This document shows positions 22,441 through 55,600 of a DNA stretch of 64,000 nt, piece by piece. The stretch covers positions 186,001 to 250,000 of the forward strand of contig RSEE01000034.1 of assembly GCA_003971905.1 (NCBI GenBank), in the 5' to 3' direction. The notes beneath the pieces were generated by a model, which made no database searches, was not told where the DNA came from, and worked only from the letters and a program-made list of their open reading frames with translations. Numbering within the stretch: position 1 is the first letter of the stretch; the number at the start of each line of letters is the position of its first letter. A program made the position numbers and the translations under genes. This DNA is from Moniliella sp. 'wahieum' (Eukaryota).

Positions 22441-24753
22441 ATGGCCGTCGCCAGCCCGTCTCCCGCCATTGCGTCTGCGTCTGCGTCTGCGTCCGCATCT
22501 GCGTCTGGCTCTGCCCACGCATCCACCGCCCCCACCGCTCCCGCCCGCCCGCCCTACGCCCTACCCGCTTTCACCCTTGACCTTGACGCTGTCACCTACA
22601 GCAGCGCCCACTCCTTTCCTGTCCGCCCCATCGTCTTCCGTCCCGCCGCCCATGCCACCACCAGCAGCTCGTCCTTCGGCTCCGAGCCTGCATCAGGTCC
22701 CTCCGCAGACCTTCCTCCTCCTGGCCCCGCCGTCGCCTTGCCTGCCCATGAGCCACTCCCCGCGCCACCTCCGCCCCCCCCTCTGCTTGCCTCGCGCCAT
22801 TCCTTCTCGCACCTTCGCCCGCATGCCCCTACTACAACTCGCACATCCACCTCCAGTTCAACATCTAGTTCCGCATCCAGCTCTGCGTCTTCCCTTCCAC
22901 GCACCACCCCACACACGCCGAGCAGAATAACCGCCCCCGCCCACGCTCCGATCGGCACCGCATCGTTGCGGGTCTCGCTGCGACAGAGGCGGAGCTGCGT
23001 AAAGAAGCCGACCGGCTCAGTTCTTCCCCATTTTCTCATCCCCCTTCCGTGCCAAGGTCTGCCTTACACTCGTCCTCATCCTTGATGGATGTACATAGGG
23101 ACTTGCCGCGGGCACATCGCATCATCCGGCCCCGTGCCCGCTCCCCGACTGGCCGTTCGATCCGGAGCGTTGCCTCTGCCCCTGGAGTGTTTCCGGACAC
23201 ACACCTCTCCTATCCATCCACCCACTTGCAGCAACAACCACCCCCAACGCGCTTCATTCTTCTTCTCCCGACGAGCCCGATCCGCCCTCTGGACAGTCCG
23301 GGACCACAACACGCTACCGCTCCAACACCCAACCTGTCCGACTATTTCCTCCTATCGCCTCAGCGTCTACCACACGGCGACGCAGGACACCGATTCACCA
23401 TGCCCAGCCTGCCTCCTCGCCCTCGAGCACGACATTTCCTATGTCCACCGGCATCGCTCCTCCTGGCTCTTTGCCAACTGTGACACCCTCCCTTCCAACT
23501 TCAGATCTGGACTCTTCCCCTCCCCCTCCGCCACCCTACAGTCCGCCCCGGAGTACCGAACCTGCCATTATGGCGAGCCAAGTCCCACGGGGTAATGGTC
23601 CCGTATTTGCTGCCGAAGAGAACGCTACCGATGAGGACACTGTCGACGAGGACTTGGTCCCAGATGCCGATTCGGGCGCCGAGGAGGTCACGCAGGAGGA
23701 GGATTTGATGGATGAGGTGGTAGAGGCTATGGTGGCCGAGGAGGATGATGGAGATGCGCTAGTCCACATTTTTGTCTTGCATCCACTACTACGCTTGCTG
23801 GCAGCGGTTCCTGGTCTGCTGGGGACGTTGTACCTATGGCGCAAGTGCGTTATCGTGGCATTGCGCAACCAAGATCTGCGTCGGATTGGCGACCGATCTG
23901 TCCCGGGCGCATTGGACTATTTGACTGCTTCAGGATGGGTGAGTGCTGGCGGGTTCTTGTTTTCATTTTCCGTTCCTGCCAAGTATACAACTGCGTAAGC
24001 AATCCATATTGACCCAGTTCTCTTTTTTCTTTTCTGTTGTCTGTCTAGTCGATGGCCACCGCCTTTCATGCACTGTCAATGACTACCTTACTCTTACGCC
24101 GCTGGCTGCTGTACTACGGCCTGCTACCTTCGCTCGTGCGACTGGTGGCACTCCAAGCAATCAGCGGGGCATTGTTGCAACTCAATTTTCACAAAATTTT
24201 CGGGTCAACTCACCCGTTGGCAGCGTGGGTAGTAGCGAGCGTAACAACTTCCTCGTTCGACGTATTGGTACGCTGGATCACAAGCAATATTGTGGACAGA
24301 CAGGCCGATCTGTTTCTTCTCTCGCCGCCCACCCGCACCGCTGGCCATGCTACCGGTCTCGCTGCCCGCTCTTCGCTGGCCATGTCACTGGTGGTGGGCG
24401 GGGGCGAGGCGCGCCAGCGTAGGCGCGGTCGTCGTTCGGCCCGTGCTGATGGGCGAGACACGATTGCACGCGACGCTGAAGCACGCCATGCGTTGGCGGT
24501 TGCGGCTAGCGCGCGTGCACGTGCAGAGGAAGCTCTTCGCCAGGCAGGCAGTGGCCTCCTGCCTCCCGCCCCGTCTACGCTGCGCGGAACCTACATCCAA
24601 TCTTTGATTACCACCAGGCGGCGCGTGTTCCACTGGGATGTGGCTGTCCGACGCAATTTGTTCTCCCTGGCGTGCCTTAGCTTTGTGAGCATGTGGGTCC
24701 TACTGCTCGACTCGATGTACCCGGGGCCGCTGCCCACAGGCGGGAAGGAATAA
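22441..24753 (+). CDS. EOS1: EOS1-family ER membrane protein with long Ser/Pro-rich N-terminus
   Basis: C-terminal region LTASGW|SMATAFHALSMTTLLLRRWLLYYGLLPSLVRLVALQAI..WITSNI..RRRVFHWDVAVRR resembles the Eos1 family. Intron ~23939-24048. The N-terminal part is frameshifted and its start is approximate. Confidence 0.78.
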
Positions 24754-29203: not shown

Positions 29204-30192
29204 AAAGATGGGAGAGGAAGAGGCGCATGGAATCTCATCTGATCTTTCAATCTCATACCCCATCTCTAGCCGCTAGACCCGCGGTTCTCAGCATTCCCTG
29301 CGCATGCCCACCTGTTGTTGCCGTCGGAGCCGAGTGCAGCATACCAGATAGTGAGTGGACAGATGTTGGCACTTACACGCTACGTTCATACGCAGTGCGT
29401 ACACACTGTGTGTGGGGGATGGCACATGTGGGGCACGCTCCCCCCCACTCATCGAACTCATCCCACTCGCCAATCCTCTTGAACTCTTGACTGGCCATCA
29501 GGCGTTACATGTTACATCCATTAGGGGAGATGTCGATGAGCTACATCCGGCGGTGGCTGTGCCTCCTGTCCATGTCATAGCAGGATCCGCAACGATTTCT
29601 CCCTTGAGCTCGAGGATGTGGAGGAATCATCTATTCTTCTTCGATCCGGCGGGCACCCGAACAAAATGTGTCGTTTTTGTACAATGCCAGTGGCGCCGTA
29701 CTGGCAATGCCGGCCCTGTCCAGTCAGCTGGGGGCCAGCATGCACCGCGGCGCCGTGCGCGGCGCCGCGTGCGGTCTAGTATCTGTGGCCCGTGCGCAGT
29801 TCCTCCATCGGATGTGTTGCTCCACTTCTCTCCCCTCTGTGTCCCCCTCCATCGCATCCACACCATCCAGTGTTGTGATATCGAGTCGCGGAGAGAGCTG
29901 CAAAAGGTAGGCAAGTCCGGTAATAACAGCGTTGGACCACTCTGTGGGATACTATGGGCTGATGATCGATGAAGGCTGAGGCCGCGCTGAGGCCGTTAGT
30001 TCCCTCACGCCGGCCACAACGAGGCGAAATTGAAGAGCCATTGCATTACAGGTGCACTTTAGTATACCACACGTATATATATGCAAAATTGAGGATGATG
30101 AGAATAGCCAACACCCCCACAGCTCATTCTCGTTGTTCTCATACCAACGCGACTTGCTACATCATCGACATCATCCTTTACGACACAACATC

Positions 30193-31157
30193 ATGTCGGC
30201 CGGAAAGTACATTCTCCTGGGCGCTGATGGCCAACTGGGTCGTTTAGCCGCATCGTACGCATGCAAAATCAAGACTGCAGGACAAGAACTGGTTCTGGCC
30301 AGCTACAAGGTGAATGAAATTCCCTCAGAGTTGCGCTCTGAGTGGGAGAGCAAGGGTGCACATCTGATCTCCCTAAGCTACGACGAACCAGACAAGATGG
30401 CAGAGGCCTTTCAAGGAGCTGAAGCGGTGAGCTTTGTTTCTACTTGGCTAATTGGTGCCCGTCGCCGTGGCCAACACAAGAACGTGATTGAAGCCGCCAA
30501 GAAGGCGGGGGTGAAGCGGATTGGGTACACCTCTTTTTGCGGCGCAGGACTTAAGTACGACCTTCCGGTCTTGCCCCAAGACCACAAGGCAACCGAAGCC
30601 ATGATCTTTGCCTCGGGCTTGCCCTACACCCTGCAACGCAATTACCTCTACGCGCAAAACATCCCTCAGCTTTTCGCCCCATCCTGGCCTTATTGTGGAA
30701 CGTTTGGCTGGACAATACTGGCGGTGTGGCGGGCGCCTATGTATCACGCCAAGATTGTGCCGAGTGTATGGCTGCGATTCTCCTGGGAAAGGGCAAAGCG
30801 AATACGATCTACACCATTACTGGCCCGCAACCCATCACCTCGCAAGAGGCATTGGACCTGTGCGCAAAAATCTCTGGTTACAAGGCCACCTTAAAGCCCA
30901 CAGAGGACGTGGATCTATACAATTTCTGGGAATCGCGTGGGGTTCCCAGAACAATCGAGGGGGACGCATCCAAGAACTCGACACCCATGAAGCTCATTAC
31001 GGACGATTTGGTTGCCTGTGGGCAGGTCATCCGTCGGGGCCTCATGGCTGAAGTTACCACTGCCGTCGAAGAACTCACGGGGCACAAGCCTATCTCTCCT
31101 CAACAAGTTTTTGAAGAGTGCCGTGACATCTTGCCCAAGGCCACCAACAATCCCTAA
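30193..31157 (+). CDS. NmrA-like / atypical SDR NAD(P)H oxidoreductase (QorB/YtfG-like)
   Basis: ILLGADGQLG Rossmann motif, HKNVIEAAKKAGVKRIGYTS, DHKATEAMIFASGLPYT, YVSRQDCAE, YTITGP, VEELTGHKP. One frameshift near 30697, no intron. Confidence 0.88.
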
Positions 31158-31674: not shown

Positions 31675-34600
31675 ATGGCTGCCGACCCTCAGTTTGTTGC
31701 GAGCATCAACCAGCTGCCCAGAACTCCCTCCTCCCCGACACCAACACTGTCAAGGCGGTGCGTACCACGCCCATCTTCCCCTCTTCGTCCCCGTGCTGAC
31801 CCGCGCACCGCAGGCCACCGAGGGTCTTCAAGCGCAGTACAAGAACCCGGCTATCGTCCCGGCTCTCTTGCAGATCCTTGCGAGTCCCACGGAAAATGGT
31901 GTTCGCCAACTAGCCGGTGTTGAGCTCCGGAAGCGCATTGCCAAGAGCGCCAAGGCCTGGTCCGCCCAGACCGTCGAGGTGCGCACGGCCATCAAGTCGC
32001 AGCTGCTGGAGATCGTCAAGAACGAGCCTAACAACTCGGTTCGCAACTCCTCGGCCCGGGTTGTTAGCGAGATCGCCCGTCGGGAACTCCCCCAGAATGC
32101 GTGGCCTGAACTGCTTCCGTTCCTTTTCACTGCCGCCGAGCAGGGCAACGCTGCCCAGCGTCAGGCTTCCGTCTTTGTTTTCTTCACCCTCCTGGAGACG
32201 TTCAACGACGAGGAGTCGGTCCAGGGCTACCTCCTCCTCAGATCATGCAACTGTTTACTCGGACTATCAACGACCCCGAGTCGCTTGCTGTGCGTGTGAC
32301 CACTGTCCGTGGCCTCGGCAAGGTTGGTGACCTGCTCGACAGCGACGCCACCGCCGACTTGGCTGCCGTGCAATCTGCCATTCCTCAGATGGTCCATGTT
32401 CTTCAGCAGGCCATCGATGGTGGTGACTCCGAGTCGGTCACGTTCGTCTTGGACGTTTTCGACACGTTCTGCCTTTCGGAACTGCCGATTATCAACTCCT
32501 GCCTCAGCGACCTGCTTGCATTCTACCTCTCGACGGCCGCTCGCGATGACCTGGAGGACGAAATGCGCGAGGCCGCACTCAACTCGACAATCTGGACCAT
32601 CAACTACAAGCGCCAAAAGATCCAGCAGCTCCAGCTGGCCAAGGTCATGATCCCCCACATTATGGCCATCCTGCCGACCGGCGACTTTGATGATGACGAG
32701 TCCAACCCTTCCACACTCGCCTTGCGATTGCTTGACACTCTGGCCACCGAACTTCCTCCCTCGAATGTTTGGCCCCGCTGTTTGAGCAGCTGCAGGCGTT
32801 TGCCCAGAACCCTGATCTTACCTACCGTGCTTCAGGCCTCCTGGCCCTTGGTGTTTCGTGTGAGGGGCTGTCGGAGACGCTGCGGCCGCAGATGGACCTG
32901 GTGGCAGTTTGTCGATGCTGGCATCAAGGACCCCGAACCCCGCGTTCAGCGCGCGGCGGCCATGGCCATTGCTTACCTTTGCGACCAGCTTGGGGATGAG
33001 ACGGTCAAGTACCACCAAGCGGTCATGCCCGCTCTCATGCATATGATTGGCCAGCCCGAACACAGCGCGATGCTACGCGTGCCCTTGATCGTTTCCTGGA
33101 GAACTTGGGCGAGGACATTAAGCAGTACTTGCAGCCGGTCATGGAGACCCTCGCTGGCTACCTCGACACGGTCCCTCTGGAGATCAAGAAGACGATCATT
33201 GCTGCCATTGGTTCCGCCGCGCACGCTTCGAAGCGGGACTTCCTCCCCTACTTCCCTGCTACCATGGCTAAGCTCACTCCGTTCCTTCAGTTCAAGGACA
33301 CGACCAACAATGAGCAGATGGACTTCCGTGCCATCACACAGGACACGGTCGGCACCTTTGGTGACGCGGTGGGCGCGGAAGCCTTCCGTCCTTACTTTGC
33401 CGACACGATGGCCATTGCTTATGATGCGTTCGAGTTGGACCAACCTCGTCTGCGCGAGTGCTCATTCATCTTCTTCAGCACAATGGCTAAGGTGTTTGGT
33501 GAAGAGTTTAGCCAGTTCCTTCCCCAAATTGCGCCAAAGATCCTCGAGAGCTTGCGGCAACAGGAGCACGAGCCTGTTGCAGGCGCCTCAGGTGACGCCC
33601 AAGCCCTCCTGGCTGGCGCTTCGGCTGAGGATGACGATGACGATTTCGTGGACATGGAAGACCTCAACGAGATCTTTGGTTCAATTTCTTCGGCCATTGC
33701 GATTGAGAAGGAGGTTGCGGCCGATTCGGTGGGGGAGATTTTCCGGTACACCAAGTCGGGCTTTTTGCCCTACCTCCAAGAGTCGGTGCAGGAGCTGGTT
33801 ACGCTTTTGCAGCACTTCAGCTCCGGCATCCGTAAGTCTGCTGTCAACTCGCTTTTCACTTGCATCAGCACCCTCAACACGATTCAAAATCCGGGCGAGT
33901 GGAAGGCTGGCCTCGCCGTGCCGGTACCCATCTCGTCGGATGTGGAGCAACTAATCGACATGGTGATGACCAACGTGTTCATCTTGTGGGAGGAGGAGGA
34001 TGACCGGTATGTGTTTCTTTTCCAATTGTCATTCCCTTGTAGGATGACAAAACTATCTCAGCTCACACCTAGTGGTGGAATAGGACCACCGCAGTGTGGA
34101 AAACCTACGTGGAGAAACTGATTCTTTTGCTGCATTATTTACTTTGAAAAAACTGTTACTGACTTGTTGTCTTTCCAGGTTTGTGGCGACGCAGTTGTGC
34201 GAGTCGCTGAGCGAGACGCTCAAGGAGGTGGGCCCGGCGGTGATTGCCAAGCGCACGGGGGATGTGGCTGATATTGCGATGAACATCCTTGAGAAGAAGT
34301 CCATTCCCCAATCTTCTCCCGGTGGGGATGAGGAGGAGGTCGACGAGGACAGCTCTGAGTACGAGACATGCTCATCTCTTCTGCGATGGATCTTGGGGTG
34401 CTATGGCCGACACGCTTGGTGCCGACTTCCAACAACCGTTGCAACGCTTCTTGCCTCAGATTACCAAGTACTACGGTCCGACCAAGGCTGTGGCCGAGCG
34501 GGCAGCCACGACGTCGGCGCTGGGGATGCTGGCTGTTGGGATGAAGGAGCATGTGACGCCCTTTACGATGCCCATGCTTGCTACTCTCTCCCACGCTGTG

Positions 34601-36193: not shown

Positions 36194-39100
36194 TCAATGC
36201 ACCACCTGCGCCACCACCCCGAGCGCATTGGGAAGGAAAGTCTGGTGGTCCCCAGCGACCTCTTGGACTTGCAAGTCGGCCGAACGGAACACTTCTTTCC
36301 AGTCCGACACTTTGGACGTCATCAAGCTCGGCGTCAGCGAGTCGTCCGACGCATTGACAATCAGCACGCTTGCCGGCTCCGCCCACTCGAGCGAGAAGGT
36401 GTGGGTGGGCACAGCTTGGGCGGCTTTGATGAAGTGCTGCCGTGACGGCTCGTACTCGACCGACGCCAACAACTTGTCCAACGAGCCCGGGGGAAGCGGG
36501 GGCATTTTCTTGTTGCTCCGCATCGCTGGCGAGTCGAGCAAGATCAACCGTTCCACCCCTTTGCCCTTGTGCACCAACTGACGCGCCACCTCGACCGCAC
36601 ACATGGCCCCAAGACTGTAGCCTCCTAGGTTGTACAGGCCATCGGGCTGGATCTGCTCGATGATCTTGGTATACTCGTCGGCCAGCGCCCGGAACCCATT
36701 CGTGGCTGGCCACCGGTCCTCGTGGCCTAAGAAGGGGGAGTTGAGTGCAATCACCGGCCGGCCCCACGTTGGCCCCATCACAGCCCGCGAAAAGCACCCA
36801 CCCACTCCACCACCATCCGGAAGCAGGATCAACGGTCCGGGCGAACTGGCATCGGGCTTGTAGGGTGGACCAGCAATTTGGAGCCAGGCCTTGCTGCCCT
36901 TGAGCACGCCTTCGGTCGTCAACATGGTGTCCGCCCCACCGGACGAGAGGGCAGGGCGGGGGGGCGACAGGCTAGCCCGCTGCCGCGCCGCCGTCGACAG
37001 GGCTGCACCCGATTGGTCCAGCTCGTGAACCGAGCTTCGAGAGCGAGCGGCCGAGCGCGGCGGTACAGCTGGAACAAGGGCACTGGGGATGAGGTGCTTG
37101 GTGCGTGCCTTCATTTGGTCAAAGGCGGTGGAGAGCAAGCGCTGCAGAGCAGAACGACGGATTTGCTTGAAGCAGGCATCGAGCATACACCCCACCAAGT
37201 TGTTATCTTCGTCGACCCAATACACATCCCCTTGTGCCACGTTGCCTTGCACCTCCATCCGAGACCAAGTCTTAAGCGTGCCCGAGTTGGGGCCAAACTG
37301 GGTCAGGCGAGGAGTGACGAGCGTGCGGCCAATGCCGTCTGCAATGTACACCGTATCCGGCTCGGCAATCATCACGTTGCAAATGAAGCCGGTCAGGCCG
37401 CCAAGCGAGTCGAGAATGTCGGGAGAAGCGATAAACTTGCCGTTGGTGGCCTTTTCCGGCCACCGGACCTGAGCCACGGCAGCCTCGTGCTCATCCGAGA
37501 TCCACATGCGCTCCATGCCTTGGTACGCCTCGCCATACTTGACAATCGCCTCAAACCGACGGTAAATCATGCTCTTGCGCAGCACCGTCGATGCTTCCGA
37601 GGGCATGTTGGCGATCGACTTGGTGACCAAGTGGCGCAGCCGCGCCCATTCCCGTTCGATAGTGGGCATGTTGACGAGACGGACGGTGCAGGTACCGTGT
37701 TGGTGCGTCGTCTCGCCTTCACGGGTGTAAAATTGGACGGTGCACCCATCTGGGTCCATCGGACTGCCAATCACCTCGACCAATACGGCTTGCTGCGGCC
37801 AGTCCGTGTTGATAAAGACGGAGCTAAACATCGAAAGGTTCAGCACCTCAAACGCCTCCGTTGTCGAAAGAGCGCCCGCCTCATCGGACAATTTGCTGCA
37901 CAGGTACTCCGCCGCTTCCATGGCCAACTCGCCAAACAGATGGGCAGGAGCAATCGCCACACCCACAACTACGTGGCCCAGAATCATCTCCCGCATGGGC
38001 GACTTGTTCAGCAGCGATTCGAAGGTGGCTGTGCAAGGCTCGGCGAGTTGTAGCTTGGTGCAGGATCCCAGTAAACTGCACTTGGGTGCCGGCAGGGACA
38101 CCCGACTTCCCCCCACTGAGCTCGCGCGCGAACGGGTTGTACGCGCCATGCTCTTCTGCTTCTCGACATTCACGTCGCGCAGTCCACGGTCCTGTTTAGG
38201 AAGAGAAAGAAGTCAGTGTCTGCAGTCCTTTTGCAATCCAGGGGAAGAGAGAAAGAGAGGACGGCACATACCATGTACGGGATGACATACTCGTCATAAT
38301 CAAACGCATACGACGGCAACTCGGCTGCGATGGCAACTGTGTGTGCACGCGAGTAGCCTAGCGAATCATGGATCGCAGCCCAGTCCATTTGAATATTGGA
38401 CTGGACGAGCTTAAGGAGTGTCTCTTGAAGCATGTGCCAGGCGCCTGCGCCGCGCTTCAGTGTGGGGATCATTGCCGGCGGCTTGGACTCGGAGGCAAAG
38501 ATGCTGCGCCATGGGTACCACCGTGCTGTGAGGGCCCAGCTCAACGAAGCACCGGATCGGAGGCAGCTGGTTCCGCTCCAGAGTCAAGGTTAGGGCAGAG
38601 ATGGCGTCGGCAAACCGGACGGGATCGCGCAAGTGCTTGACCAAGTAATCAGCGTTAAACACCCCGCCCCGCTCCACCACACGCCCACAATTGGCAGCGA
38701 CCATTTTGACGGGGGCACGGAAGGTGGCCTGGGCGGCAATAGGAGCATAGTGTGGCATCAGGGGCTGGACCGTCCGGCTGTGGAACGCATAGGGAACAGT
38801 GAGGAGCATGTTTTTGATCTTGGGTTCGGCTTGGTCGGCGAGAACCTTGACACGCTGGCATTCGGGAAGGGGGCCAGCAAGGACAAGGTCGTCGATCGAA
38901 TTGTAGCAAGCAATCTCACAGTTGTTTGCGGTAGCTTGCTGCATCAAGCGACGAACCACCCCCTCAGGTGCCTTGATTGCCAACATAGAGGAGGTATTAG
39001 CCTCGCAATGCTCAATCATTAGCTCGGCGCGCTTGCCCACCAACATGAGCACATCTGTCAACGACAATACGCCGGCCACATGCAAAGCGGCATACTCGCC

Positions 39101-42100
39101 TAGACTGTGGCCCATGACCGCTTGTACCGGAACGTTCCACAGCCGCAATAGGCTCGCCAGACTAATCTCGACAGCCACCAGGCCCAACTGAGAGTGGACC
39201 GGAGAGGGTTCCAAGCCCCCCGGCCCTTGGGCGGGATAGATGGCACTGATAAAGTCACCAAACCCAAGTGCCTTGGCCACATCGTTGCATTTGTCCATCG
39301 AGGCGCGGAAAGGAGGACTGCGGGCATAAAGCTCATGACCCATGTGGGAGTACTGCGATCCCTGGCCAGTGAAGGCGTAGGCAATCCCATGACCCTCGGC
39401 CGGCGGACGCGGGGCTTCCATGGGTTCTTGCTTTTCCAACAAGGTGCGCACCTCGTGGATCGTGTGGACCAATCCAACGACACGGTACGTGTGGTGTTTC
39501 CGCGTAGCCAGTGCCGCGCACAGGTGAGCGACGTCTGTGTGGGGATGCGAATCAAGCCAGGTAAGAAGACGCTTGCAATTCTCATTGACCGAGTAGAGGG
39601 TCGCGCCTGAGATAATGAGCAGTGCTGGTACCCGTTCGGTCAAGTGCGGGCTATCCTCCACCACCGGCCCAGGACGGACGATCAAGGAAGAGTTTCCGGC
39701 CGCGGCGGAAAAGTTGGCCACCCCATAGACACGGTCATCGTGGTGCTCAGAATGGGGCGGTAGTGGAGTGTTTTCCATAGGGATCTTGAGGCCATCCATG
39801 GGGGGCAGCCGAGTGTTGAGCTGCGTCCGAATGCCAATGTGACGTGGGACAATCTGATGCTTGGAGACCAGAAGGGTCTTGAGCAATGCAGAAGCCCCTG
39901 CCGTAGACTCAGAATGACCAATGTTGGCCTTGACGCTTCCAATCACTAACGGCCGGCCTGCCTCCCGGATTTTGGCATACGTCTCCACCACACCAGTCAC
40001 CTCTTCAAAGTCCCCTGCTGCGGTGCCGGTTCCGTGCATCTCGTTGTAAGCAATCTCGTTGGGGGTAGGGATCTTAGACGCGACCATGGCGCTGCGGTAG
40101 AGACGGCGTTGTGTGGGATTGTGCGGGTGAGTAATGGAATAGGTTTGTCCCGAGTGGTTGGTCACCGCCGAGTTGATTACCCCGAGGATATTGTCACCGT
40201 CGTTGACAGCGTCCGAGAAGCGTTTCAACACACAACAAACGCTAGCGCGTCAGCCCGTGAATAGCCATCGCCCTTGTCGTCCAGCGTCTTGCATTGTCCC
40301 GTGTCGGATAGGAAAAATCCACGGTCCAAGCCAATGAAGATTTGCGGCTGAGTAAGGACGTTGATCCCGCCAGTCAGGACGCGTCGGCTTTGCCTTGGAG
40401 CAGAAACGAACAGGCGCTTTCAATGGCAACAAGCGCACCGGAGCATGCCGTGTCACACGTGACGGATGGCCCACCCCAACCGAAGAAGCGATTGATTCGG
40501 CCGGGGATGTTGGCGCGCAGCAGGGCCGGGGCAAAGGGGGCAGAGATGGTGTAGGAGCGATTCTGTTGGTAATCGTCACTGCAGATACCAAAGATGGACC
40601 CAAAGCGGGACGGGTCATTGGAAGTACCTTTACGCGGAGCGTACCCTGCCGAGTCAAGCGCTTCGACTGCGACCGAGAGCGCAAGGCGTTGCTGTGGGTC
40701 CAGTTTGCGTGCCATTGTTTCGTCCATGCCGAAATAGGTTGGGTCCCAAATCCACGGGCGATCAATAAAGTTGCCCTGCATTGCCCGCATGGTGTTCTTG
40801 TCGCGGTACGAAGGGGTGCGGTAATCATCAACGTTAAAGAGGCGCTCGGGAATACGCTGGCACATGTCTTTGCCGTCCAGAAGGTTTTGCCAAAACGCAT
40901 CGACGGTCTCGGCTCCGGGAAGACGACAGGCCATGCCCACCACGGCAATCGACTCGGCCACGGTACCCCGCACGGCAGAGAGATTGACGGGCCAGTGCTT
41001 GTCAATCGGTTTAAAGTTGCCCTTGGCTGTGTCTGTCAGCACATCAATCGGCTCCGACAGGGTGACTTGAGCTTGAACGGCGTGGTAAGCCAAGTCCATT
41101 TGGACACTCTGGAGCAAAATTGAATTGGCTCCGATAGAGAAGAGCGCCACCTCATGCGCTTGGTCCGACGCGGTAGCCTGGGCTACGATTTGAGAAAAAT
41201 CAAGAGTGGTGGGTAGGGTCCGTCCACTGATTAGGTCACGGAGGACAAAGGTGCGCTTGGGCATGCTGCCATGGAGAAAGGCGAGATCAAGACCTTCAAT
41301 GAGGGGCATCAGGTGCTGCTCCACCACATCGAGAGCTGTTTCGACAGGCAGATAGCCAATCCCTTCAGCCGGGCTCGAGGCGAATCCATTGACCAACAGC
41401 TCGAGATCGAGGGCACCAAGGCTCATACGGGTGCCAGTGACCAAGGTAAAGTTGCCTGCTTTGATCGAGAGCATCTAAACAGAGAGGCCGAGACGGGGTT
41501 AGCACCAAAGATAAAAACGAATAGGGATGTGAAAAGAAAAGAAAAAACATACCTCTTTGGCGCCAGTCGGACCGACAAGGTGGGCTGCCGTCTTGGGAAC
41601 AATGAGGCGGTGGCTAAGGTTTTCAGCACCCATCATGGTAGCTTGGGTGTCGGTGGTATAGGCCAACGACCAAGCCAGAGCGACGGCTTGAGCACCATAG
41701 TGGGCCACATCGGTCATTCCAGTCGAGGCAGTGAGCACGCTCTCGGCTAGTCCGTAGGTGGTGAGATCGAGGAAGCCCTGGGTGCCGTACTTGAGGAGGC
41801 GGGCCAGTAGGTGGGGCTCGACGCCAGCTGTCACAGTGTTGGGGTTGAGGCCGGTGCTAGCGGCGATGATGGTAGCAAAGATAGCAATGAGTTCAAGCGC
41901 CGGGGTGTAAAGCGGGTCTGCGCTGAGGGTTGCCAGGGTGTTGGGAGCGGCAAGCTCGGCGAGGCTGAGGCAGGCCGCCTGGGGCTCCTCGCCGTTGGTC
42001 ACCAACATCTTGGCAACTTGGACATTGAGTGCGGAAAGAGAGGATTGAAGAAAGGCGGTGAGAAGCGGGAGGGAGGAGGAGAGACGGAGGAGAGTGGTGA

Positions 42101-42215
42101 GCTGGTGGGTGAGGGTCAGCTGCTGGGGATCGCCGAGGACAGTGACGAGCGGGGCGCGGTGGAGAAAGTGGAGCGGGTGCTCCCTGTCGGCGTCCGAGTC
42201 AGCGTGGTGGGCCAT
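36194..42215 (-). CDS. Iterative type I non-reducing polyketide synthase, SAT-KS-AT-PT-TE, apparently lacking an ACP
   Basis: [106 protein letters not shown]. Introns 41552-41475 and 38271-38192. Several 1-nt frameshifts. Confidence 0.93.
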
Positions 42216-46071: not shown

Positions 46072-46438
46072 CCTCAGGTGAGGACCCAGAAGCATAACCG
46101 CATCGCCCCGCCGCAGCTTTTCTCTTCTCAAATCCCAAACGGAATCCCATGCGGCACAGGCACAGGTACAAGCAGCAGTTCCATTCGGTCAAGCAAGTGT
46201 GGGGTGGCAAGTACATTCTCGAGGCACCCCAACCAGGGGCGGGCTATGCCCACCTCGGTACCCAAGAAACGGCAGCAGGGGGTGTCCGGAAGGGAGGAGA
46301 GTGGTCCTATAGGTGGCATGGGAAGAGGTACAGCAAACGGGGAATCGGCGCGCATAGGGTAGCAAGCAGAAAAGGGGGAGGAGAGGGAGAGCAACGCATG
46401 GGATCAAGCTAGATCAAGGGAGGAATGCCCGTGGGCAC

Positions 46439-47632
46439 TCAGGCACGCAATCCCCCAATTTCGGCGCTGTGGGCCTTACCCTCGTAGATCAGTTCGGCCA
46501 TGACCTTGCCTGTGCCGGGTCCGAGAGTAATGCCCCAGCAAGTATGGCCGGCAGCAATGTAGAGTCCAGTCTCAGGGAGGCCATCGATCAATGGGCCGCG
46601 GAAGGCGCCAGCGGGGAGGTAGCAAGCGTGCTGGGCCTCGAGCAGCGCGCCATCGCCCAAGCAGGTAGGAGCAATGATGCGAATTTGTTCCATGAGCTTT
46701 TTGGTCTGTCGCGGTTCGTACCCAATATCATCTGCCAACGCTGGCAACGGCTCATTGTCCGAGCCACCGCAGATGTACACCGTCCCGTCCCCACGCGCAT
46801 AGATCTCCGGCCCACGCGCCACGATGCCCGTGTCACCAAAGCGCATGTCGGTGAAGAGACAGTGGGCGGTCGTGGGTCTGGTACCGCGCAGGATGATCGA
46901 GTGGGCACGGGAACCGCCAACGGTACGGCCCTTGCGAGCGACCTTGCTGTGGTAAAGCAGGCTAGTCGGCTTGACCAGGCTCTTGAACAGTTCGCCGGTC
47001 CACGGACCTGCCGCCACCACCACCCGGTCGCACGCCAGCACCTCAGTACGAGCACCATCCACGCTCTCCATCACCAAGCCCTTGATCGTATCCTCCTCCG
47101 ACAGGAGAATCTCTGTGGCCTTGGTACCAACACGGCACTCGACGCCTTCCTCCTTGCACGCCTCTTCCACCAAGTATTCCACAAGGAACTTGGGCGTCAC
47201 CTGGGCCGTCGAACCTTTGCCGCCCATGTGCTTGGTGGAGGTGACGATCTTGGGGTCAATCCAGTGGAGCTCCTTGGGGCACTTGGACCGATGCTTGGCG
47301 GTATCAATGTTGACCTGCAACGTCTCTACCTCGCGGTACCCCCAGCGCTCCACACCATTGCCCTCCTCGGCAAGATCCTTGTGCAGCTGGTAACTCAAGC
47401 GTGCCAAGGAGGACGTGGAGAAGCCGTGCCAATCACGGGCCAAGAAGCCCCCCGACCGCCCGCTGGCCGAGGCCGCCAGCTCGTAGCTCGCTTCGAGCAG
47501 GGTCACTTTGCTCCCGGCCGGACGATAGGGGTGTGGCCATGTAGTACAAGATGGAGGCGCCAATGATGCCGCCCCCGATGATCACGACGTGCTGGGGGGC
47601 GTGTGGGTGTGGGTGTGCTGGAAGGACGACAT
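46439..47632 (-). CDS. FAD-dependent oxidoreductase, DAO family (Tda3-like)
   Basis: HVVIIGGGIIGAS dinucleotide-binding motif (frameshifted from the main ORF), ASGRSGGFLARDW, VVVAAGPWT, PEIYARGDGTVYICG, ACYLP, AAGHTCWGITLGPGTG. Confidence 0.9.
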
Positions 47633-48415: not shown

Positions 48416-49671
48416 TTACACCGGCTCCAGGATGACGGCAATGCCCTGGCCACCACCAATGCAGGCTGCACCCAGCGCATACTTCTTATCAAGTCGGTGC
48501 AAGTTGTGGGTCAAGTTGGCAAGGATCCGAGCGCCCGAAGCACCCAGGGGGTGGCCAGAGGAAATCGCGCCGCCAAAGGGGTTCGTGATGTCTTCTGGCA
48601 GCTCCAGCTCCTTTTGAACTGAAAGGAACTGAGCTGCAAATGCCTCGTTCACCTCAATCAGACCCATGTCGCCAATCGTCAGCCCAGCGCGCTTGAGCGC
48701 CATCCGGATGGCCTCGACCGGACCAATGCCCATAATTTCCGGAGCGCACGCCGTCACGCCGTACGACACGATCCGGGTCAACGGCTTGAGACCAAACTTC
48801 TTCACTGCCTCCTCGGACGCCACCACATTGGCAGCGGCACCGTCACAGATGCCCGATGCATTGCCCGCGGTGACTGTCCCGTTCTTTTGAACACAGAGGG
48901 AAGACGGGCAAGCGATTCGGCCGTCGTCTTGGCACGAGGATGCTCATCCCCAGAAATCGTCTCGGTCGTCTGCCAGTCCCATTTGCAGTCAGAACCTATC
49001 TTCCTCCGAACCTCGCGCCATAACAGCAGGGTGGGGTCACGCACCTTCTTCACCGGCACCTCCACCGGCACAATCTCATCAACAAAAGCCCCCTCTGCCA
49101 GACCCTTTTGATACAGCGTCTGAGACCGAAGTGCAAACGCATCGCACTGCTCACGAGTAATACCATATTTGACCGCCAAGTTTTCCGCTGTGATGCCCAT
49201 GGGAGTCGGGTGAGGGTAGGCATCCGTTAGCGAAGCCATTAGCGAATCGACGAGCTTGAGGTCAACACCAAACTTGCCCCCGCCAAAGCGGACGCCATGG
49301 AGAGTGTAGGGCGATTGTGACATGCTCTCTGTACCACCCGTCAAGACCACCTGGCTGTCGCCCACCTTGATTTCCTGCACAGCGTTGATTACGCTCTGGA
49401 AGCCCGAACCGCACAGCCGGTTGACTGTCAGAGCCGGCGTGGTGACGGGCAAGCCGGCACGGTGACCAACGTGACGGGCCAGGTAGGCAGCCGAGTTGTC
49501 GCTAGCGTGCACGTTGCCAAAGATGGTCGCGTCTACCTCGACGCCTTCGGGCAGCTGGGCCAGGGCTGCCTTGGAGGCGATGCCACCCAGGTGGGCAGCA
49601 TTGAAGGAGGAGAGTTTGCCGCCGAATGCGCCAAAGGGCGTCCGCTTGGCTGCAACAATAAAGGACGACAT
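48416..49671 (-). CDS. 3-ketoacyl-CoA thiolase (mitochondrial ACAA2-like)
   Basis: [69 protein letters not shown]. Intron ~49042-48972 and a frameshift at ~48886. Confidence 0.95.
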
Positions 49672-50853: not shown

Positions 50854-51460
50854 TTACGCAGTCGAGGCAGAAATAGGCTGAGAAACAGAAGGGGAAGAAG
50901 CAAAGACTGAAGTCGGCTGTCCTGGTCCCGCACTCCGTTGATGAGCCCTCGACGAAAGTAAGTCGTAGAGAACCCCAGTGGCACCGCCAAGACTAGCACC
51001 ACCTAGGACACCGTTCACGAGCCCAGCACGACGGACTGGGGGGGCACAGGGGAAAGTTAGCTGCCAACATGTTTGACCACGCGCAGAGCATGGAAAAGAG
51101 GAGGAGCGAGCGTACACAACAGAGCAGGCATAGCCAAAGCACCAATCGAAGCACCTAGAAGGAAACAATCTGTATGGCCGCATATCGTGTGGCACATGTA
51201 CAAAAAGAACGGTGAGCTCTCCCAGTTTCGATCGTGTCTTCTCAGCAGGCAGTGTGCAGGAGTACCAAGACGTACCTTCTGTCCGAATGCGATGCACATC
51301 CGCCCGAATCGTCTCCGCTGCGTGGAAAGTGGCCATGGGAGCTTGGTTGGCGATCTGGAATCCGCATGCCGTTGCACCAATAACTCCTCCGATGAGGGGC
51401 ATAGCCCAGCTGTATACAGCACGTCAGAAAGAAAAGGCCAAGGTGGTAGAGGAAGAGGAG

Positions 51461-51512
<52 letters not shown>

Positions 51513-51857
51513 GCAATGGAGTACACACCTAGTGCGCAGGGCTGCGCGGAAGGAAAAGCCCCTGCGGGCGGCGTAGAGCAGGTAGAGGGGAGGCGCAAGC
51601 ACTGTGGAGAGGGTAGCTGCGCCCAAGGCAGCCTTGCCGACAAGGTAGCGGCGGTAGCGCTGGGCGTCAATGATGGCGGTGATCGGCGGGCGTGTGTCCA
51701 TAGAGTTAGATGCAAGAGGCGAAGTCTGGGCATCCCCCTCCGTGGCAGCAGACGAGGAAGACCCGCGGGTAGCACGGTGGGGCTGAGCAGCCGTAGCGGT
51801 GGCGGCAGCAGCGGGGGTGAGGGCGGTGCGGAGAGAAGCGCCGGTGGCGGTAAGCAT
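50854..51857 (-). CDS. Hypothetical multi-pass membrane protein (Gly-rich helices)
   Basis: Hydrophobic segments ALGAATLSTVLAPPLYLLY, PLIGGVIGATACG, FLLGASIGALAMPA, GVLGGASLGGATG. Probable introns, including one containing the GA microsatellite. Confidence 0.6.
51463..51508. repeat. (GA)n microsatellite, about 23 units, probably intronic
   Basis: Directly visible. Confidence 0.95.
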
Positions 51858-52541
51858 GGCACAGAGGATGGGTGGAGAAGCGGTGGTGGTGTGGCAACGG
51901 GCAAGGGAGAGAGATGGAGGTGGGGAAAGCAGAGCCCCCCCCACAAAACGGTCCGAGCACCCAACCCCAGTAGGGGCTGTAGTCACAATCAGTGTGTCAT
52001 CAAGCGCATGTGCTGCCTCTGGTAGGGGCGATGGCGCCCCCACATGCGAGCTCACGCGCTCAACCGAGTGCTGGGGGTACGGCCTACGATCTCAGACCAG
52101 CGCCCGGCCATCGGCGCTTGAAGCTTGACGCTTGACGCTCCGTGCTCGGTGCTCGGCGCTCGACCGTCTCTTCCCCAGTGCATTTTGATTTACTGTGGGG
52201 CTCCGCACTCAGAGGAGCCCTGTTGATGCATGATATATGATCGGTGATCCCAGGCGCTCGGGCCACCAGCCGGCCAGAGAGCGGCAGGCGGCGACCGACG
52301 CTGTGCTTGGGCAAGCGTACTGCTGCCCTGTGCACCCTTCTCCTCACATGTCACAGGTCACAGGTCACATGGTCGTTCAACGTTCATGACGTTCATGTCA
52401 CATGTCACGTGCCCTCCCCATCACACCTGCATCACCTGCATCGCCACCCTCGCGCGTCACGTGCATGCACAGCACCCCTGCCTTCAATTTCCACCCGAGC
52501 GAGCGCCGCTCGGCCACCACCGGCCACCCGTCCATGCACCC

Positions 52542-52573
<32 letters not shown>

Positions 52574-52613
52574 GCCACCAGCCCTCACCACCGCCAGCGC
52601 CAAACCTCTGCAC

Positions 52614-55600
52614 ATGGGAACGCGCATCCAGCGCACCCTCCTCCTCGCCACCCGCGCCGAGGAGGCCTATGCTGACTTTTGCGCCTCTGCCCCACCGCCA
52701 CCCGACTCCACCCCAGCCTCTCCGTCTGCAACCCGCCCACCACATGCCGGATGGTACCAACTCATCACCGACCTCCGCCTGGTCGCCACCGATCCATTCA
52801 TAACCGACTTTGATTCGCCCGGAGCGCCCTACTCGCCATCGACGCAGTTCCTTGTCGACCTCCTTGTCTCCTGCTCCCGTCTACCCGCCGATGACCAATG
52901 GCTCCTGGCCACTGCCCGCGGTCGGTACGGCGAACGAGTCGCTGCGTTCCTCTCGCACCAGCTCAACATCCATCCCCATCCCACAACCAGCTCCGATCTA
53001 CGCCCTTCGCCTCGCACCACCCTCCCTTTCAACCTTGGTTCGCCCACATCCCTACCCTCCTTGGCCAACGTACCGCCACCGCCGCGCTTCCCTTCCCTGG
53101 ACCCCCGCCTGCGCGTCTCCGCGTCCCCCTCTTCTACCGTCCAAGCAGGAGATACAAACTCCTTCGCTGTTCCCTATATGGGTGCCGCAGCGACGTTGCA
53201 GGGCCCAGCCCCCGCGTTACTGGATTCTTACCATCGCCGTGAAGCACTTATCCGTGTTCAACGAGTGGTCATTGATCGCATCCAAGAGTCACTGCAGGCC
53301 CAGGCCCGCGATGGGCTCAGTCGCACCCCATCGGACGAGAACAGCAGCAGCAGAAGGCCGGGCGCGGTCCAACGTGCTCCCTGGAGGTCCGGCTTGGAGA
53401 CGGACGGACAGTCCCGTGCGGCGGGGCGCGTCGCAGGACCCGACCGTTCTCAGCGTTCAAGCACAGAGCGATATTCGGACGTGATGGACCTTCTTGAGCA
53501 CTTATTTACGGCACAGCACGAGCGAACGATCGCTGCCAGCTCTGCGGCTGCCTCAGCTCGCAACACTACCGGTGCCGACCCAGAAATTACCCCCGTCGGG
53601 CGCTCTCGGACCCTTGGACCCTTACCCCATGCCCTATCCGGATCTAATGAGGACGTTCTATCTGCTTCCCCATCCTCCCGCTCTGCTCATCTTGAGCCAC
53701 CTGCCCACGACTCTCCGCCGCGTCCGTCCAGCCCCCTTTCATCCATGCGGACCCATCAAACCCCCTTTTCAGGCCCACCAACTCTCGACCCTCCCCCCAA
53801 TACTGAGTGGCCTTCTCAGTCCACCTCTACCTCGAGCTCACTCGTTTTGCCGGAAAATCGCAGCTTGTTGCCACCCCCTTTGCCCCAGCGTCGAACCGAA
53901 CGACCCACACCGTCCCAATCTCCCGACCCGTCCTCTGGAGGTACGGCAAGCGCAGGAAACAACTTGACTGAGGCCATTCCACCATCCCAGAGAGCACACG
54001 CTCGTTCACAGTCCCTGCAACGATTGGAGCTGGATTGGGGATCCCATTCTTCATCGACACAGTCGGGCCCAGCAACCGCCCGCCTGCGCAGTCGGCTTCA
54101 GACTCTTCCCTATCGCCACCCGCATCGCTCGGCCCACGTATACGTGGTGGATGAGGATGATCCCACCAGTGAATGGGCATTGATGCGTAAGTTTTGTTTC
54201 TATGAATTGGACGGATAAGAAAGCTGACTTTGTCTTAGGCGACGCTCAGCGTTCTTCACCACAAGTGCCCGATAGAAACACTGATCCTGACGGGGAAGAT
54301 CTGAATTTCAATCGGGAGGACATGCTGGTTCTACCCGACATCCCCGTCGCCTCGCCTCAAGGGTCGCTGGATTTTCCCCCGCCCCATTGTCCTCTCCACC
54401 GGACAATCCTCTGCCTAGAAGGGAACGGTGGCAGTTGGAAGGCTTCGCTCGAGACCTGCGGCTTCGCACCAGGCTGTCCCCTCCGCCTCTCCGACGCGGG
54501 GAAGGTACCGATGCCCTTCGACAGCAAGAAACCGAACCTTTGCTCCCTCCCTCGCCCCAACCCGAGGGTGACCTGCGTTCGACCCGGGGTCCCAGGCGCT
54601 TGCCTTCCATCACGGACGAGGACGTGCAGAACTTACGTCCGCAGGAGGGAGAGCGCCGCTTCTCCCGTGCTCCGGGAGGATACGCCCCCGGTGCACCCGC
54701 GTTGCAATCCCGCCGGACCCATAACCTGCGATATTTCAGATGGTACTCCGGTGTCAGCAAGTAGTGAGCTTCGGTCCCGAACACGGACCATGGCCGAGAC
54801 GATAGCGCAGTACCGTGAGGCGACGGCACTGTTGCAAAGCCTGCGTGTTCGGTTAAATGCGTTGGACCTGAGAGGGATGGGCGATAACCGAGCGACGTCC
54901 CAGGCAGTGGTGGAGCGCAATGTGGCGCGGCTGTCCGAACGAGGTGGCCGATCTGAGTCCCCGCCTTTGCCACCGCACACGCTCACTGGTTCTACAGCTG
55001 GGGGGCGGGAGGGGCCCTATGCCTCCCGCCAGCGCCTTGGCCGTGCAAGGACGTCGGAAGGGACTTCTTCCGTGCCTCTTGCCTCCCCGATACTGAGAAG
55101 TAGCGAACAACTCATTTCTCCCTCTGTCATACCAAACCGTCACTCCACCCCCCACCCCAGCTGACTCCCCTTCCCCCATGGCATCTCCCGCCGCTCATAC
55201 GGAAGAACAGTGCGCACCTCTCCCAGTCTGGCTGAACAAGGTACGCTCTCGCGTTGACATGGGCCAGAGGGAGGTACTACCCGCGCCGCTCCTCGGGCTC
55301 AGCATCGCGGATGGATCGTATCCCCAGCGACCATGTCTCGTGCCATGGACCTGTTCAATTATGGGAACGGGTCTCTTCCTGCATCCGTGGGAGCTTGGGC
55401 TGCGGCCATCGACTTGGTTGCTTTGCATTGGATCCTCACGGCACCACTTCCTCCTCCGTGGCAGAGTACGCAGCCGAACCCTTGCTCCGACGACCCCGAT
55501 CGGCCTCCAAAAAGCACTTATTTAGTCAATCACCCACACAGTTGGAGGTGGACCCTCTTGAGAACTTGGTCTCCGTCTCGCCCCAGTTAGCTGTGGGCAC

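What the first reader, a model, noticed from the sequence alone, without database searches (positions are those of the whole stretch)
36194..42215. Non-reducing PKS with intact KS/AT/PT/TE motifs but no ACP domain
Seen: PT and TE lie in one uninterrupted 659-aa ORF joined by a ~90-aa Ala/Ser/Pro/Arg linker with no (L/M)GxDSL phosphopantetheine motif. KS Cys-His-His, AT GHSLG, PT His/Asp and TE GYSLG are all present. Established: NR-PKSs need an ACP, and from recollection complementation between incomplete PKSs has been reported for smut-fungus pigment pathways. Inference: this enzyme works in trans or as a heterodimer with an ACP-bearing partner encoded elsewhere, possibly in melanin or aromatic polyketide synthesis.
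Basis: partly seen in the sequence, partly recalled or inferred. Interest (0 to 1): 0.75.

Follow-up and report, generated by a model that had tools for sequence, protein, structure and literature searches.

The report
ACP-less half of a split polyketide synthase
This fungal gene encodes a pigment-type polyketide synthase with working catalytic domains but no carrier domain; in related fungi the same enzyme sits beside a partner with carrier domains but dead catalytic sites, so the two probably work only as a pair.

Summary
A minus-strand gene (42215-36194; 3 exons, 2 canonical introns, about 1955 aa) encodes SAT-like/KS/AT/PT/TE with intact KS, AT and TE catalytic motifs, conserved PT His and Asp regions, and no ACP. 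Pfam, a six-frame ACP profile over the whole window, a profile-profile test and a fold of the PT-linker-TE exon all agree. Housekeeping genes in the window carry the same kind of break, so I read them as assembly indel errors, not decay.

The gene belongs to a strongly supported, uniformly ACP-less clade of Ustilaginomycotina.

In Tilletia horrida and Pseudozyma flocculosa the Pks2-type gene lies next to a Pks1-type gene with the mirror defects: an active-looking SAT and two ACPs, but all three KS catalytic residues replaced and a dead, truncated AT.

Best reading (0.65): this is the KS+AT half of an obligate two-protein non-reducing PKS. Limits: no partner lies in this 64-kb window, no genome or reads were available, and nothing is shown biochemically. 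New member of a known kind; the reciprocal degeneration appeared in no paper I could search.

The parts
36194..42215 (-). Whole Pks2-type NR-PKS gene, start codon to stop codon; conceptual product about 1955 aa
   Evidence: tblastn of P0007, P0006 and P0126; gene model with no internal stop in any of 6 pieces
41553..42215 (-). Exon 1 (221 aa), N-terminal part of the SAT-like domain
41475..41552 (-). Intron 1, 78 nt, GTATGT...TTTAG; contains the two in-frame stops
38272..41474 (-). Exon 2: end of SAT-like domain, KS, AT, AT-PT linker. One exon, read in three frames because of three frame breaks
   Evidence: continuous ORF in the close relative P0006
40378..40379 (-). Frame break 1, inside KS between ...GKADA and LTGGINV...
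40244..40245 (-). Frame break 2, inside KS between ...GYSRADA and ...[11 protein letters not shown]
38509..38509 (-). Frame break 3, at the end of AT between ...[11 protein letters not shown] and RSIFASE...IPTLKRG
38192..38271 (-). Intron 2, 80 nt, GTATGT...AACAG
36197..38191 (-). Exon 3 (665 aa): PT, linker, TE in one open frame
40983..42215 (-). Diverged SAT-like N-terminal domain (residues 1-385; spans intron 1) without the GxCxG catalytic Cys
   Evidence: Pfam SAT only E=0.16; hhalign against SAT profile gives probability 97.7%, E 1.8e-12; Cys position reads YGLAES
39650..40970 (-). KS domain (residues 390-830); Cys565 at 40445-40443, His702 at 40036-40034, His742 at 39916-39914
38437..39379 (-). 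AT domain (residues 921-1235); Ser1012 (GHSLG) at 39106-39104; Arg and YAFHS present
37130..38035 (-). PT domain (residues 1343-1644); catalytic His and Asp regions conserved
   Evidence: TIGR04532 197 bits > 168; pLDDT 80-94
36836..37129 (-). PT-TE linker, 98 aa, Ala/Ser/Pro/Arg-rich, where an ACP would be expected; no ACP
   Evidence: exon-3 residues 371-433 have pLDDT<50 and no secondary structure
36197..36835 (-). TE domain (residues 1743-1955); Ser1816 (GYSLG) at 36616-36614; C-terminal His conserved

Best explanation
The gene encodes the condensing and loading half (KS + AT, with its own PT and TE) of a two-protein non-reducing PKS. It cannot carry its own intermediates. A second megasynthase of the Pks1 type supplies the phosphopantetheine arms. 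That partner reads SAT(active)-KS(dead)-AT(dead)-PT-ACP-ACP-TE. The window enzyme's AT would malonylate the partner's ACPs in trans, its KS would run every condensation, and the partner's SAT would prime. Most likely the active KS and the dead KS pair up in place of the usual KS homodimer. The product would be an aromatic polyketide, probably a pigment or melanin precursor as in Ustilago maydis teliospores. Shown here: the domain content, the intact catalytic motifs, clade membership, the mirror-image defects of the partner family, and gene adjacency in two other species. Inferred: physical pairing, the in-trans chemistry, the product, and that this organism has the partner at all. The three frame breaks are taken to be assembly errors.
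For: (1) No ACP. PF00550 is absent from 6 of 6 ORF pieces and from exon 3 at E<=10. A local ACP profile found nothing in 1752 six-frame pieces of the whole window (best E 0.7) while hitting 4 of 4 ACP-bearing controls at 1e-20 to 1e-26; those controls probably also contributed to the profile. hhalign of 17 clade linkers against the ACP profile gives probability 0.1%, against 99.7% for the same region of 7 partner-type proteins. The linker is unstructured in the fold. (2) The loss is a conserved clade trait. PF00550 is found in 0 of 7 clade members at E<=1. The linker is only 57-65 aa in four relatives. On the KS tree the window sits in a 14-row all-ACP-less clade (100/98), next to Tilletiaria (100/100). 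(3) Family identity. P0013 = NDA16_004830 and P0035 = PFL1_03751 are listed as pks2 orthologs in Table S7 of PMC13208730. (4) The partner. P0378 = PFL1_03752 is listed as a pks1 ortholog and carries the locus tag and accession next to PFL1_03751. T. horrida KAK0552225.1 (Pks2-type) and KAK0552226.1 (Pks1-type) are consecutive, as are the equivalents in two further assemblies. (5) Mirror defects. Of 7 partner-type lineages, the 6 that cover the Cys region have it replaced by Asp or Glu, and all 7 have both His replaced and the AT GHSxG lost, while keeping 1-3 ACP motifs; P0149 starts after the Cys region. The SAT Cys (GYCTG) is kept in the 4 aligned, and Pfam SAT is strong in the 3 scanned. The Pks2 type has the reverse pattern. 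(6) Mirrored tree. AT-dead proteins form one clade (99) that splits into KS-partly-intact and KS-dead groups. The sister clade (99) splits into mostly ACP-bearing and ACP-less groups. (7) Selection. Identity to the close relative is KS 84, AT 83, TE 83 and PT 77%, against 44% in the linker. (8) Frame breaks are background noise. Thiolase has 1, topoisomerase III has 3 and importin-beta has at least 1, all seen at nucleotide level; Cu-amine oxidase has at least 4 by profile coordinates. (9) Precedent. U. maydis Pks3 (no AT) and Pks4 are jointly required for orsellinic acid (bioRxiv 10.1101/2019.12.28.889758, passages).
Against: No Pks1-type gene lies in the window: tblastn with four partner-type proteins hits only this gene, and its neighbours are housekeeping genes. 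The genome is not held, so the partner's existence here is unknown. Adjacency is shown only for T. horrida and P. flocculosa, whose Pks2-type genes form a different subclade from the window's. For the window's subclade I have only co-occurrence in Violaceomyces, on contigs of different length. I never saw the sequence of U. maydis Pks1, so its KS and AT state is unverified. PMC13208730 reports pks1 homologs in 13 of 15 species but pks2 in all 15; the authors suspect contig edges, but it could mean Pks2 can persist alone. The frame is broken three times in this assembly and no reads were available to check. UniRef labels one pks2 ortholog (EX895_004191) 'Carrier domain-containing protein'; I could not reproduce that label or explain it. 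There is no expression, binding or product evidence of any kind.
Confidence: 0.65

Rival explanations
1. Pseudogene: the gene lost its ACP, is no longer used, and the three frameshifts are real decay.
For: Three frame breaks lie inside KS and AT. No partner gene or tailoring genes are nearby. No expression data exist. Some authors have suggested that ACP-less fungal PKSs are inactivated (PMC8471558, passages).
Against: Frame breaks of the same kind occur at equal or higher density in housekeeping genes of the same window: thiolase, topoisomerase III and importin-beta. There is no in-frame stop in about 1952 codons once frames are followed. The KS, AT and TE catalytic motifs are intact and the PT His and Asp regions conserved. 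Catalytic domains are 77-84% identical to the close relative, against 44% in the linker. The ACP-less form is conserved across the whole clade.
Confidence: 0.08
2. Artefact: an ACP exists but is hidden by a collapsed or deleted assembly segment, a wrong frame, or a missed exon.
For: The assembly is demonstrably indel-prone. Ala/Ser/Pro/Arg-rich sequence can arise from out-of-frame reading of GC-rich DNA. UniRef calls one ortholog 'Carrier domain-containing'.
Against: The linker aligns in frame with the independently assembled close relative P0126. No ACP signal appears in any of six frames across the window. GC3 of the linker is coding-like (71%) and it holds no intron donor. Seventeen relatives from many assemblies have linkers of 57-122 aa with no ACP. 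U. bromivora aligns collinearly across the junction.
Confidence: 0.03
3. It works without a dedicated PKS partner. It would either act directly on CoA thioesters, as ACP-independent type III PKSs and the macrotetrolide type II PKS do, or borrow another carrier such as a stand-alone ACP or the FAS ACP.
For: No partner lies in the window. pks2 homologs are reported in 15 of 15 Ustilaginaceae species but pks1 in only 13. The enzyme has its own PT and TE. ACP-independent PKS chemistry has a precedent (PMC8471558, passage).
Against: The mirror-image degeneration of the neighbouring Pks1 type (ACPs kept, KS and AT killed) is hard to explain unless the two serve each other. So is the mirrored tree. 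I know of no type I iterative KS-AT that works without a carrier (background knowledge). No stand-alone ACP is in the window.
Confidence: 0.12
4. It is an orphan or has been re-partnered. In this lineage the KS-dead partner was lost or is of another type, and the enzyme now serves a different ACP-bearing PKS as a trans-acting KS/AT, or makes a different product.
For: The window gene sits among housekeeping genes, unlike the clustered pairs in T. horrida, P. flocculosa and U. maydis. Its subclade differs from the one with proven adjacency. Violaceomyces and Botryobasidium also carry AT-dead PKSs with a partly intact KS, so several partner types exist.
Against: Violaceomyces, whose Pks2-type gene is in the window's subclade, does have a KS-dead partner-type gene, P0159. 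The catalytic domains remain conserved.
Confidence: 0.12

Closest known systems
Ustilago maydis Pks2 (UMAG_06418) with Pks1 (UMAG_06414), the teliospore melanin PKS pair
   Same: Same clade on the KS tree as proteins that PMC13208730 Table S7 lists as pks2 orthologs (NDA16_004830, PFL1_03751, EX895_004191). Same SAT-like/KS/AT/PT/TE layout without an ACP. [quoted passage not shown]
   Different: Only about 43% identical to the Ustilaginaceae proteins over KS_C-AT. Not clustered with a Pks1-type gene within 64 kb. The melanin role comes from a paper I did not see (Islamovic et al. 2015, cited). I did not see the U. maydis proteins themselves.
Ustilago maydis Pks3/Pks4 split PKS for orsellinic acid and triacetic acid lactone
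   Same: Two incomplete PKSs are jointly required for one product. Pks3 has no AT, which is proposed to be supplied in trans by Pks4 (bioRxiv 10.1101/2019.12.28.889758, passages). A review calls them heterodimers (PMC10098057, passage).
   Different: A separate cluster, reported only in U. maydis 521. That Pks4 is the ACP-less member is my inference from the text, because the figure is not held. Their relationship to the clades described here was not tested.
[quoted passage not shown]
   Same: An active KS is paired with a homologous KS whose catalytic Cys is replaced, and the pair works on a separate carrier protein (background knowledge; PMC11744666 seen as a search listing only).
   Different: Those are small discrete proteins with a Gln at the Cys position. 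Here both partners are roughly 2000-aa type I megasynthases, the dead KS has Asp or Glu, Ser or Ala, and Ala at the three catalytic positions, and the carrier is fused to the dead partner. Heterodimerisation here is not shown.
Canonical fungal NR-PKS (SAT-KS-AT-PT-ACP-TE, e.g. PksA, PksP/Alb1)
   Same: Same domain order and homologous KS, AT, PT and TE. Catalytic motifs align.
   Different: No ACP, and the SAT has lost its catalytic Cys. It is therefore not self-sufficient by the accepted minimal domain set (PMC10401856, passage).
Trans-AT PKSs and the two-subunit fungal FAS
   Same: Acyl transfer reaches a carrier on another polypeptide, and catalytic domains are divided between two proteins. 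The U. maydis authors draw both analogies.
   Different: Different enzyme families and architectures. This is an analogy only.

Membership tests
Canonical self-sufficient NR-PKS | ACP (PP-binding) domain between PT and TE | tested here: not met
   Pfam, six-frame ACP profile, hhalign and fold
Canonical self-sufficient NR-PKS | KS with Cys-His-His and AT with GHSxG | tested here: met
   the frame is broken three times in this assembly
Canonical self-sufficient NR-PKS | PT domain | tested here: met
   TIGR04532 197 bits against a 168 cutoff; His and Asp regions conserved
Canonical self-sufficient NR-PKS | SAT with catalytic GxCxG | tested here: not met
   Homologous to SAT (hhalign 97.7%) but the Cys is absent and Pfam SAT scores only E=0.16
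Ustilaginomycotina Pks2 (UMAG_06418) family | Groups with named pks2 orthologs in a KS phylogeny | tested here: met
   14-row clade 100/98 and 9-row clade with SH-aLRT 99; names
Ustilaginomycotina Pks2 (UMAG_06418) family | SAT-like/KS/AT/PT/TE architecture with a short ACP-free PT-TE linker | tested here: met
Ustilaginomycotina Pks2 (UMAG_06418) family | Pks1-type partner gene nearby | tested here: not met
   No second PKS in the 64-kb window; the rest of the genome could not be searched
Ustilaginomycotina Pks2 (UMAG_06418) family | Required for spore melanin | not testable with these tools
   Known only from U. maydis genetics as cited
Obligate two-protein (Pks1+Pks2) PKS | Partner has ACPs but catalytically dead KS and AT | tested here: met
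   In relatives only: 7 lineages
Obligate two-protein (Pks1+Pks2) PKS | The two proteins bind each other and are both needed for product formation | not tested
   No complex prediction was run and no experiment was possible

The most novel reading that the evidence does not exclude
Pks1-type and Pks2-type enzymes form an obligate heterodimeric type I iterative PKS, a fungal megasynthase counterpart of the bacterial KS/chain-length-factor pair. One protomer keeps KS and AT and has lost its ACP and SAT Cys. The other keeps SAT and the ACPs and has lost the whole KS triad and the AT. The mirrored tree suggests that an old A/B gene pair, already present in chytrids and Agaricomycetes with a milder asymmetry, was duplicated as a pair and then degenerated reciprocally. 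This would explain at least some of the 'ACP-less' fungal PKSs that have been dismissed as non-functional.
Probability: 0.4. Interest if true: 0.75.

Novelty: new member of a known kind. Interest (0 to 1): 0.55.

Why it matters
ACP-less fungal PKSs have been noted before, with 'the reason still unknown' and a suspicion that they are dead genes (PMC8471558, passage). Here the ACP-less enzyme belongs to a conserved family, and in related fungi its neighbour carries exactly the complementary defects. That turns a puzzling annotation into a testable model: a heteromeric iterative PKS in which catalysis and carrier functions sit on different megasynthases. If confirmed, it would give a natural system for studying how ACPs are shared across protomers and how a dead KS shapes chain length or dimer assembly. 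It would also tell genome miners to score such 'incomplete' PKS genes in pairs rather than discard them. For this window the practical messages are more modest. The gene is an ordinary member of that family, its partner must be sought elsewhere in the genome, and the assembly's indel errors must be fixed before any gene here is called broken.

Tried and rejected
- Whole-genome search for ACPs or a partner: no genome is held for this window.
- Sequencing runs for coverage or expression: none was listed, and no RNA holder was listed.
- The first 'longer' search with the PT-TE ORF gave only 5 weak hits, crowded out by long proteins. It was replaced.
- Metagenome scan with the Pks1-type alignment A1: the tool chose generic KS patterns. 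None of the 80 loci kept has a dead-KS signature, and none is close to the window's PT-TE.
- Earlier scan notes: one unrelated note on the same genome and none by words. One search failed on a word limit and was corrected.
- The last word-indexed search returned no Ustilaginaceae pks1 ortholog and no Tilletiaria partner, so their KS and AT state stays unseen.
- The published AEM 2021 version of the U. maydis paper is not held. Figures 3A of the preprint and 9B/D of PMC13208730, which show domain maps, are not held. Part 2 of 3 of the supplement of PMC13208730 was read; parts 1 and 3 were not.
- The idea that the Ala/Ser/Pro/Arg linker is an out-of-frame ACP was considered and rejected.
- The idea that the gene is the U. 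maydis Pks4 ortholog was considered and rejected in favour of Pks2.
- Complex prediction was not run. A KS/KS pair would probably pass by likeness to solved KS homodimers and could not separate a hetero- from a homodimer.
- dN/dS could not be computed because no orthologous DNA was available. Per-domain protein identity was used instead.
- Searches for prior statements of the reciprocal defect found none: plus passages. This library lacks most subscription journals.

Full report
WHAT IS THERE. The finding's coordinates hold one gene on the minus strand. Stop-to-stop ORFs and Pfam show KS_N (40374-41474), KS_C and AT (38411-40249), and PS-DH and Thioesterase (36194-38212), with an N-terminal ORF that has no Pfam hit. 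PF00550 is absent from all 6 pieces scanned. tblastn with the Tilletiaria anomala homolog P0007 and with a closer unnamed relative (P0006 and P0126) gives the gene model:
- start codon at 42215
- exon 1, 42215-41553
- intron 1, 41552-41475 (GTATGT...TTTAG)
- exon 2, 41474-38272
- intron 2, 38271-38192 (GTATGT...AACAG)
- exon 3, 38191-36197
- stop at 36196-36194

The conceptual product is about 1955 aa with no internal stop in any piece. Catalytic motifs are present: KS Cys565, His702 and His742; AT GHSLG with Arg and YAFHS; the PT His and Asp regions; TE GYSLG and a C-terminal His. The curated fungal PT model is passed at 197 bits against a 168 cutoff. The N-terminal 380 aa are a diverged SAT (hhalign probability 97.7%) that lacks the GxCxG Cys.

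THE FRAME BREAKS. The homolog alignments switch frame after nt 40380, 40246 and 38510. The query coordinates overlap at each switch, so no intron fits, and the close relative has one continuous ORF across all three sites. Reads could not be consulted because none was listed, so I tested the background instead. The same kind of break occurs in housekeeping genes of the window:
- Thiolase changes frame exactly at its conserved ...[11 protein letters not shown]... core, in a short A-run. Its two pieces map to residues 27-234 and 260-414 of PDB 4c2j_A.
- Topoisomerase III changes frame three times within 500 nt of conserved sequence.
- Importin-beta changes frame at least once.
- A Cu-amine oxidase changes frame at least four times, judged by profile coordinates.

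That is at least 9 breaks in roughly 9-10 kb of coding DNA, against 3 in 5.9 kb for the PKS. The PKS has no in-frame stops. Its conservation also follows domain boundaries: identity to the close relative is KS 84%, AT 83%, TE 83% and PT 77%, against 44% in the linker and 55% in the N-terminal region. I therefore read the breaks as assembly indel errors, not decay.

IS THE ACP REALLY MISSING? An indel-prone, GC-rich assembly could hide an ACP in another frame, so I tested this in several ways.
- The linker aligns in frame with the independently assembled relative P0126. In Tilletiaria and three other relatives the PT-to-TE spacer is only 57-65 aa, too short for an ACP fold.
- A local ACP profile, built from 326 ACP segments of proteins fetched here, found nothing in 1752 six-frame pieces of the whole window (best E 0.7). 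It gave no significant hit in 14 clade members (one at E = 5, inside the KS). It scored four ACP-bearing Ustilaginomycotina and Botryobasidium PKSs at 1e-20 to 1e-26. Those controls probably contributed to the profile.
- Profile-profile comparison of 17 clade linkers with the ACP profile gives probability 0.1% (E 0.8). The same interdomain region of 7 partner-type proteins gives 99.7% (E 2.5e-25).
- The linker has coding-like GC3 (71%) and no intron donor.
- In an AlphaFold2 model of exon 3 (17-row alignment, mean pLDDT 76.9), PT and TE are confident. Residues 371-433 have pLDDT below 50 and no secondary structure.
- Pks1-type queries align to the window on both sides of their tandem ACPs, with only about 175 nt between the flanks.

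One loose end remains. UniRef names the S. graminicola ortholog EX895_004191 'Carrier domain-containing protein'. Pfam at E<=10, NCBIfam at E<=1 and the local profile find no carrier in it.

WHICH FAMILY. Of the 30 best hits to the KS_C-AT exon, 21 lack PF00550. The named ones are from Tilletiaria, Violaceomyces, Ustilago, Kalmanozyma, Tilletia, Testicularia, Melanopsichium, Pseudozyma and Sporisorium. In the exhaustive representative search, U. bromivora P0018 aligns collinearly across PT-linker-TE (query 4-668 against 1308-1980). A KS tree of 33 rows puts the window with the close relative and Tilletiaria (100/100), inside a 14-row clade (100/98) made only of ACP-less proteins. Five rows were dropped there because my active-site regex missed them, and four of those turned out to be the key (see below).

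Three clade members carry locus tags that Table S7 of PMC13208730 lists as pks2 (UMAG_06418) orthologs: NDA16_004830, PFL1_03751 and EX895_004191. The same paper states that pks3/pks4/pks5 homologs were not found outside U. maydis 521. pks1 and pks2, with lac1, are the genes tied to teliospore melanin. I have that only through citations of Islamovic et al. 2015.

THE PARTNER. The next-best relatives of the PT-TE exon include T. horrida P0133, Thecaphora frezii P0134 and Botryobasidium P0132. Pfam reads them as SAT-KS-PT-ACP-ACP-TE. PF00698 is absent or far below its cutoff: 16.9, none and 21.5 bits against 32.7. P0378 is PFL1_03752, listed as a pks1 ortholog in Table S6, next to PFL1_03751.

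Alignment shows that these Pks1-type proteins have lost every KS catalytic residue: DTACS becomes DTGDS, HGTGT becomes SGHH, and NIGHSE becomes NIGACE. They have also lost the AT active site, and the Arg and YAFHS region is deleted. They keep the SAT GYCTG Cys, the PT and TE motifs and two ACPs. The same pattern appears in Violaceomyces P0159 and in two unnamed partial proteins, P0149 and P0176, which makes seven lineages. P0149 starts after the Cys region, so its Cys state is unseen.

A second, milder group has a dead AT but a KS that keeps Cys and the first His: Botryobasidium P0132, Violaceomyces P0216 and the chytrid Geranomyces P0136. With these rows added, the quick tree (SH-aLRT only; two rows dropped by the regex) is mirrored. 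An AT-dead clade (99) splits into KS-partly-intact and KS-dead groups. Its sister clade (99) splits into a mostly ACP-bearing group and the ACP-less Pks2 group. The two clades are sisters at 91.

HOW IT MOST LIKELY WORKS. The division of labour is reciprocal. KS and AT are intact only on the Pks2 type. The SAT Cys and the ACPs exist only on the Pks1 type. PT and TE are on both. The simplest mechanism is a hetero-complex. The Pks2 AT would load malonyl onto the Pks1 ACPs, the Pks2 KS would do all condensations, and Pks1 would prime through its SAT. The dead KS would take the place of the second protomer of the usual KS dimer. Domain content, motifs, adjacency and phylogeny are shown. Binding, chemistry and product are inferred. 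The experimental precedent is U. maydis Pks3 (no AT) plus Pks4, which are jointly required for orsellinic acid and triacetic acid lactone.

LIMITS. No partner is in this window; its neighbours are importin-beta, a PHD-finger protein, a thiolase and a P5A-ATPase. The genome is not held. Adjacency is proven only in a different subclade from the window's. I never saw U. maydis Pks1 itself. pks1 homologs were reported in only 13 of 15 Ustilaginaceae species, against 15 of 15 for pks2. No paper I could search states the reciprocal KS/AT versus ACP/SAT degeneration. The domain figures of the two most relevant papers are not held, and most subscription journals are missing, so prior description cannot be excluded.

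VERDICT. The gene is a new member of a known family (Pks2). It is best read as the catalytic half of a two-protein NR-PKS (0.65). The frame breaks are best read as assembly noise.

Noticed in passing
window 48877-48889 (thiolase), 8437-8935 (topoisomerase III), 32216-32239 and about 33050-33100 (importin-beta), about 59005, 58817, 58270 and 58010 (Cu-amine oxidase): Housekeeping genes change reading frame inside conserved domains with no room for an intron. The assembly appears to carry roughly one indel error per 1-2 kb, so any 'broken' gene in this genome needs read-level confirmation.
   Followed up: partly
P0386 (S. graminicola EX895_004191, a pks2 ortholog): UniRef names it 'Carrier domain-containing protein', yet Pfam (E<=10), NCBIfam (E<=1) and a local ACP profile find no carrier domain. 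The source of the label is unexplained.
   Followed up: partly
PT-TE linkers of P0007, P0127 and P0128: The three shortest linkers share a small 'SDSA[ILV]' motif (…MSDSAIILP…, …NSDSAVWLP…, …LSDSALIMP…). It is not conserved in the window or in the Ustilaginaceae. It is too short for an ACP and may be chance or a phosphorylation-type site.
   Followed up: no
The chytrid AT-active member also lacks ACP and TE in its precomputed Pfam list. The two-gene arrangement may be much older than the smut fungi.
   Followed up: partly
window 52248-56495 (+), 46358-47566 (+), 51057-52091 (-), 22285-23998 (+): Several long ORFs (up to 656 aa) have no Pfam hit at E<=0.001. They were not examined further and may be fragmented by the same indel errors.
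   Followed up: no
window 30034-30894 (+), 58363-60198 (-), 60562-61812 (+): An NmrA-like NAD(P)-binding protein, a Cu-amine oxidase and a Zn-alcohol dehydrogenase are the only possible tailoring-type genes within about 20 kb of the PKS. No laccase, P450, transporter or cluster transcription factor was recognised, so the PKS looks unclustered here.
   Followed up: no
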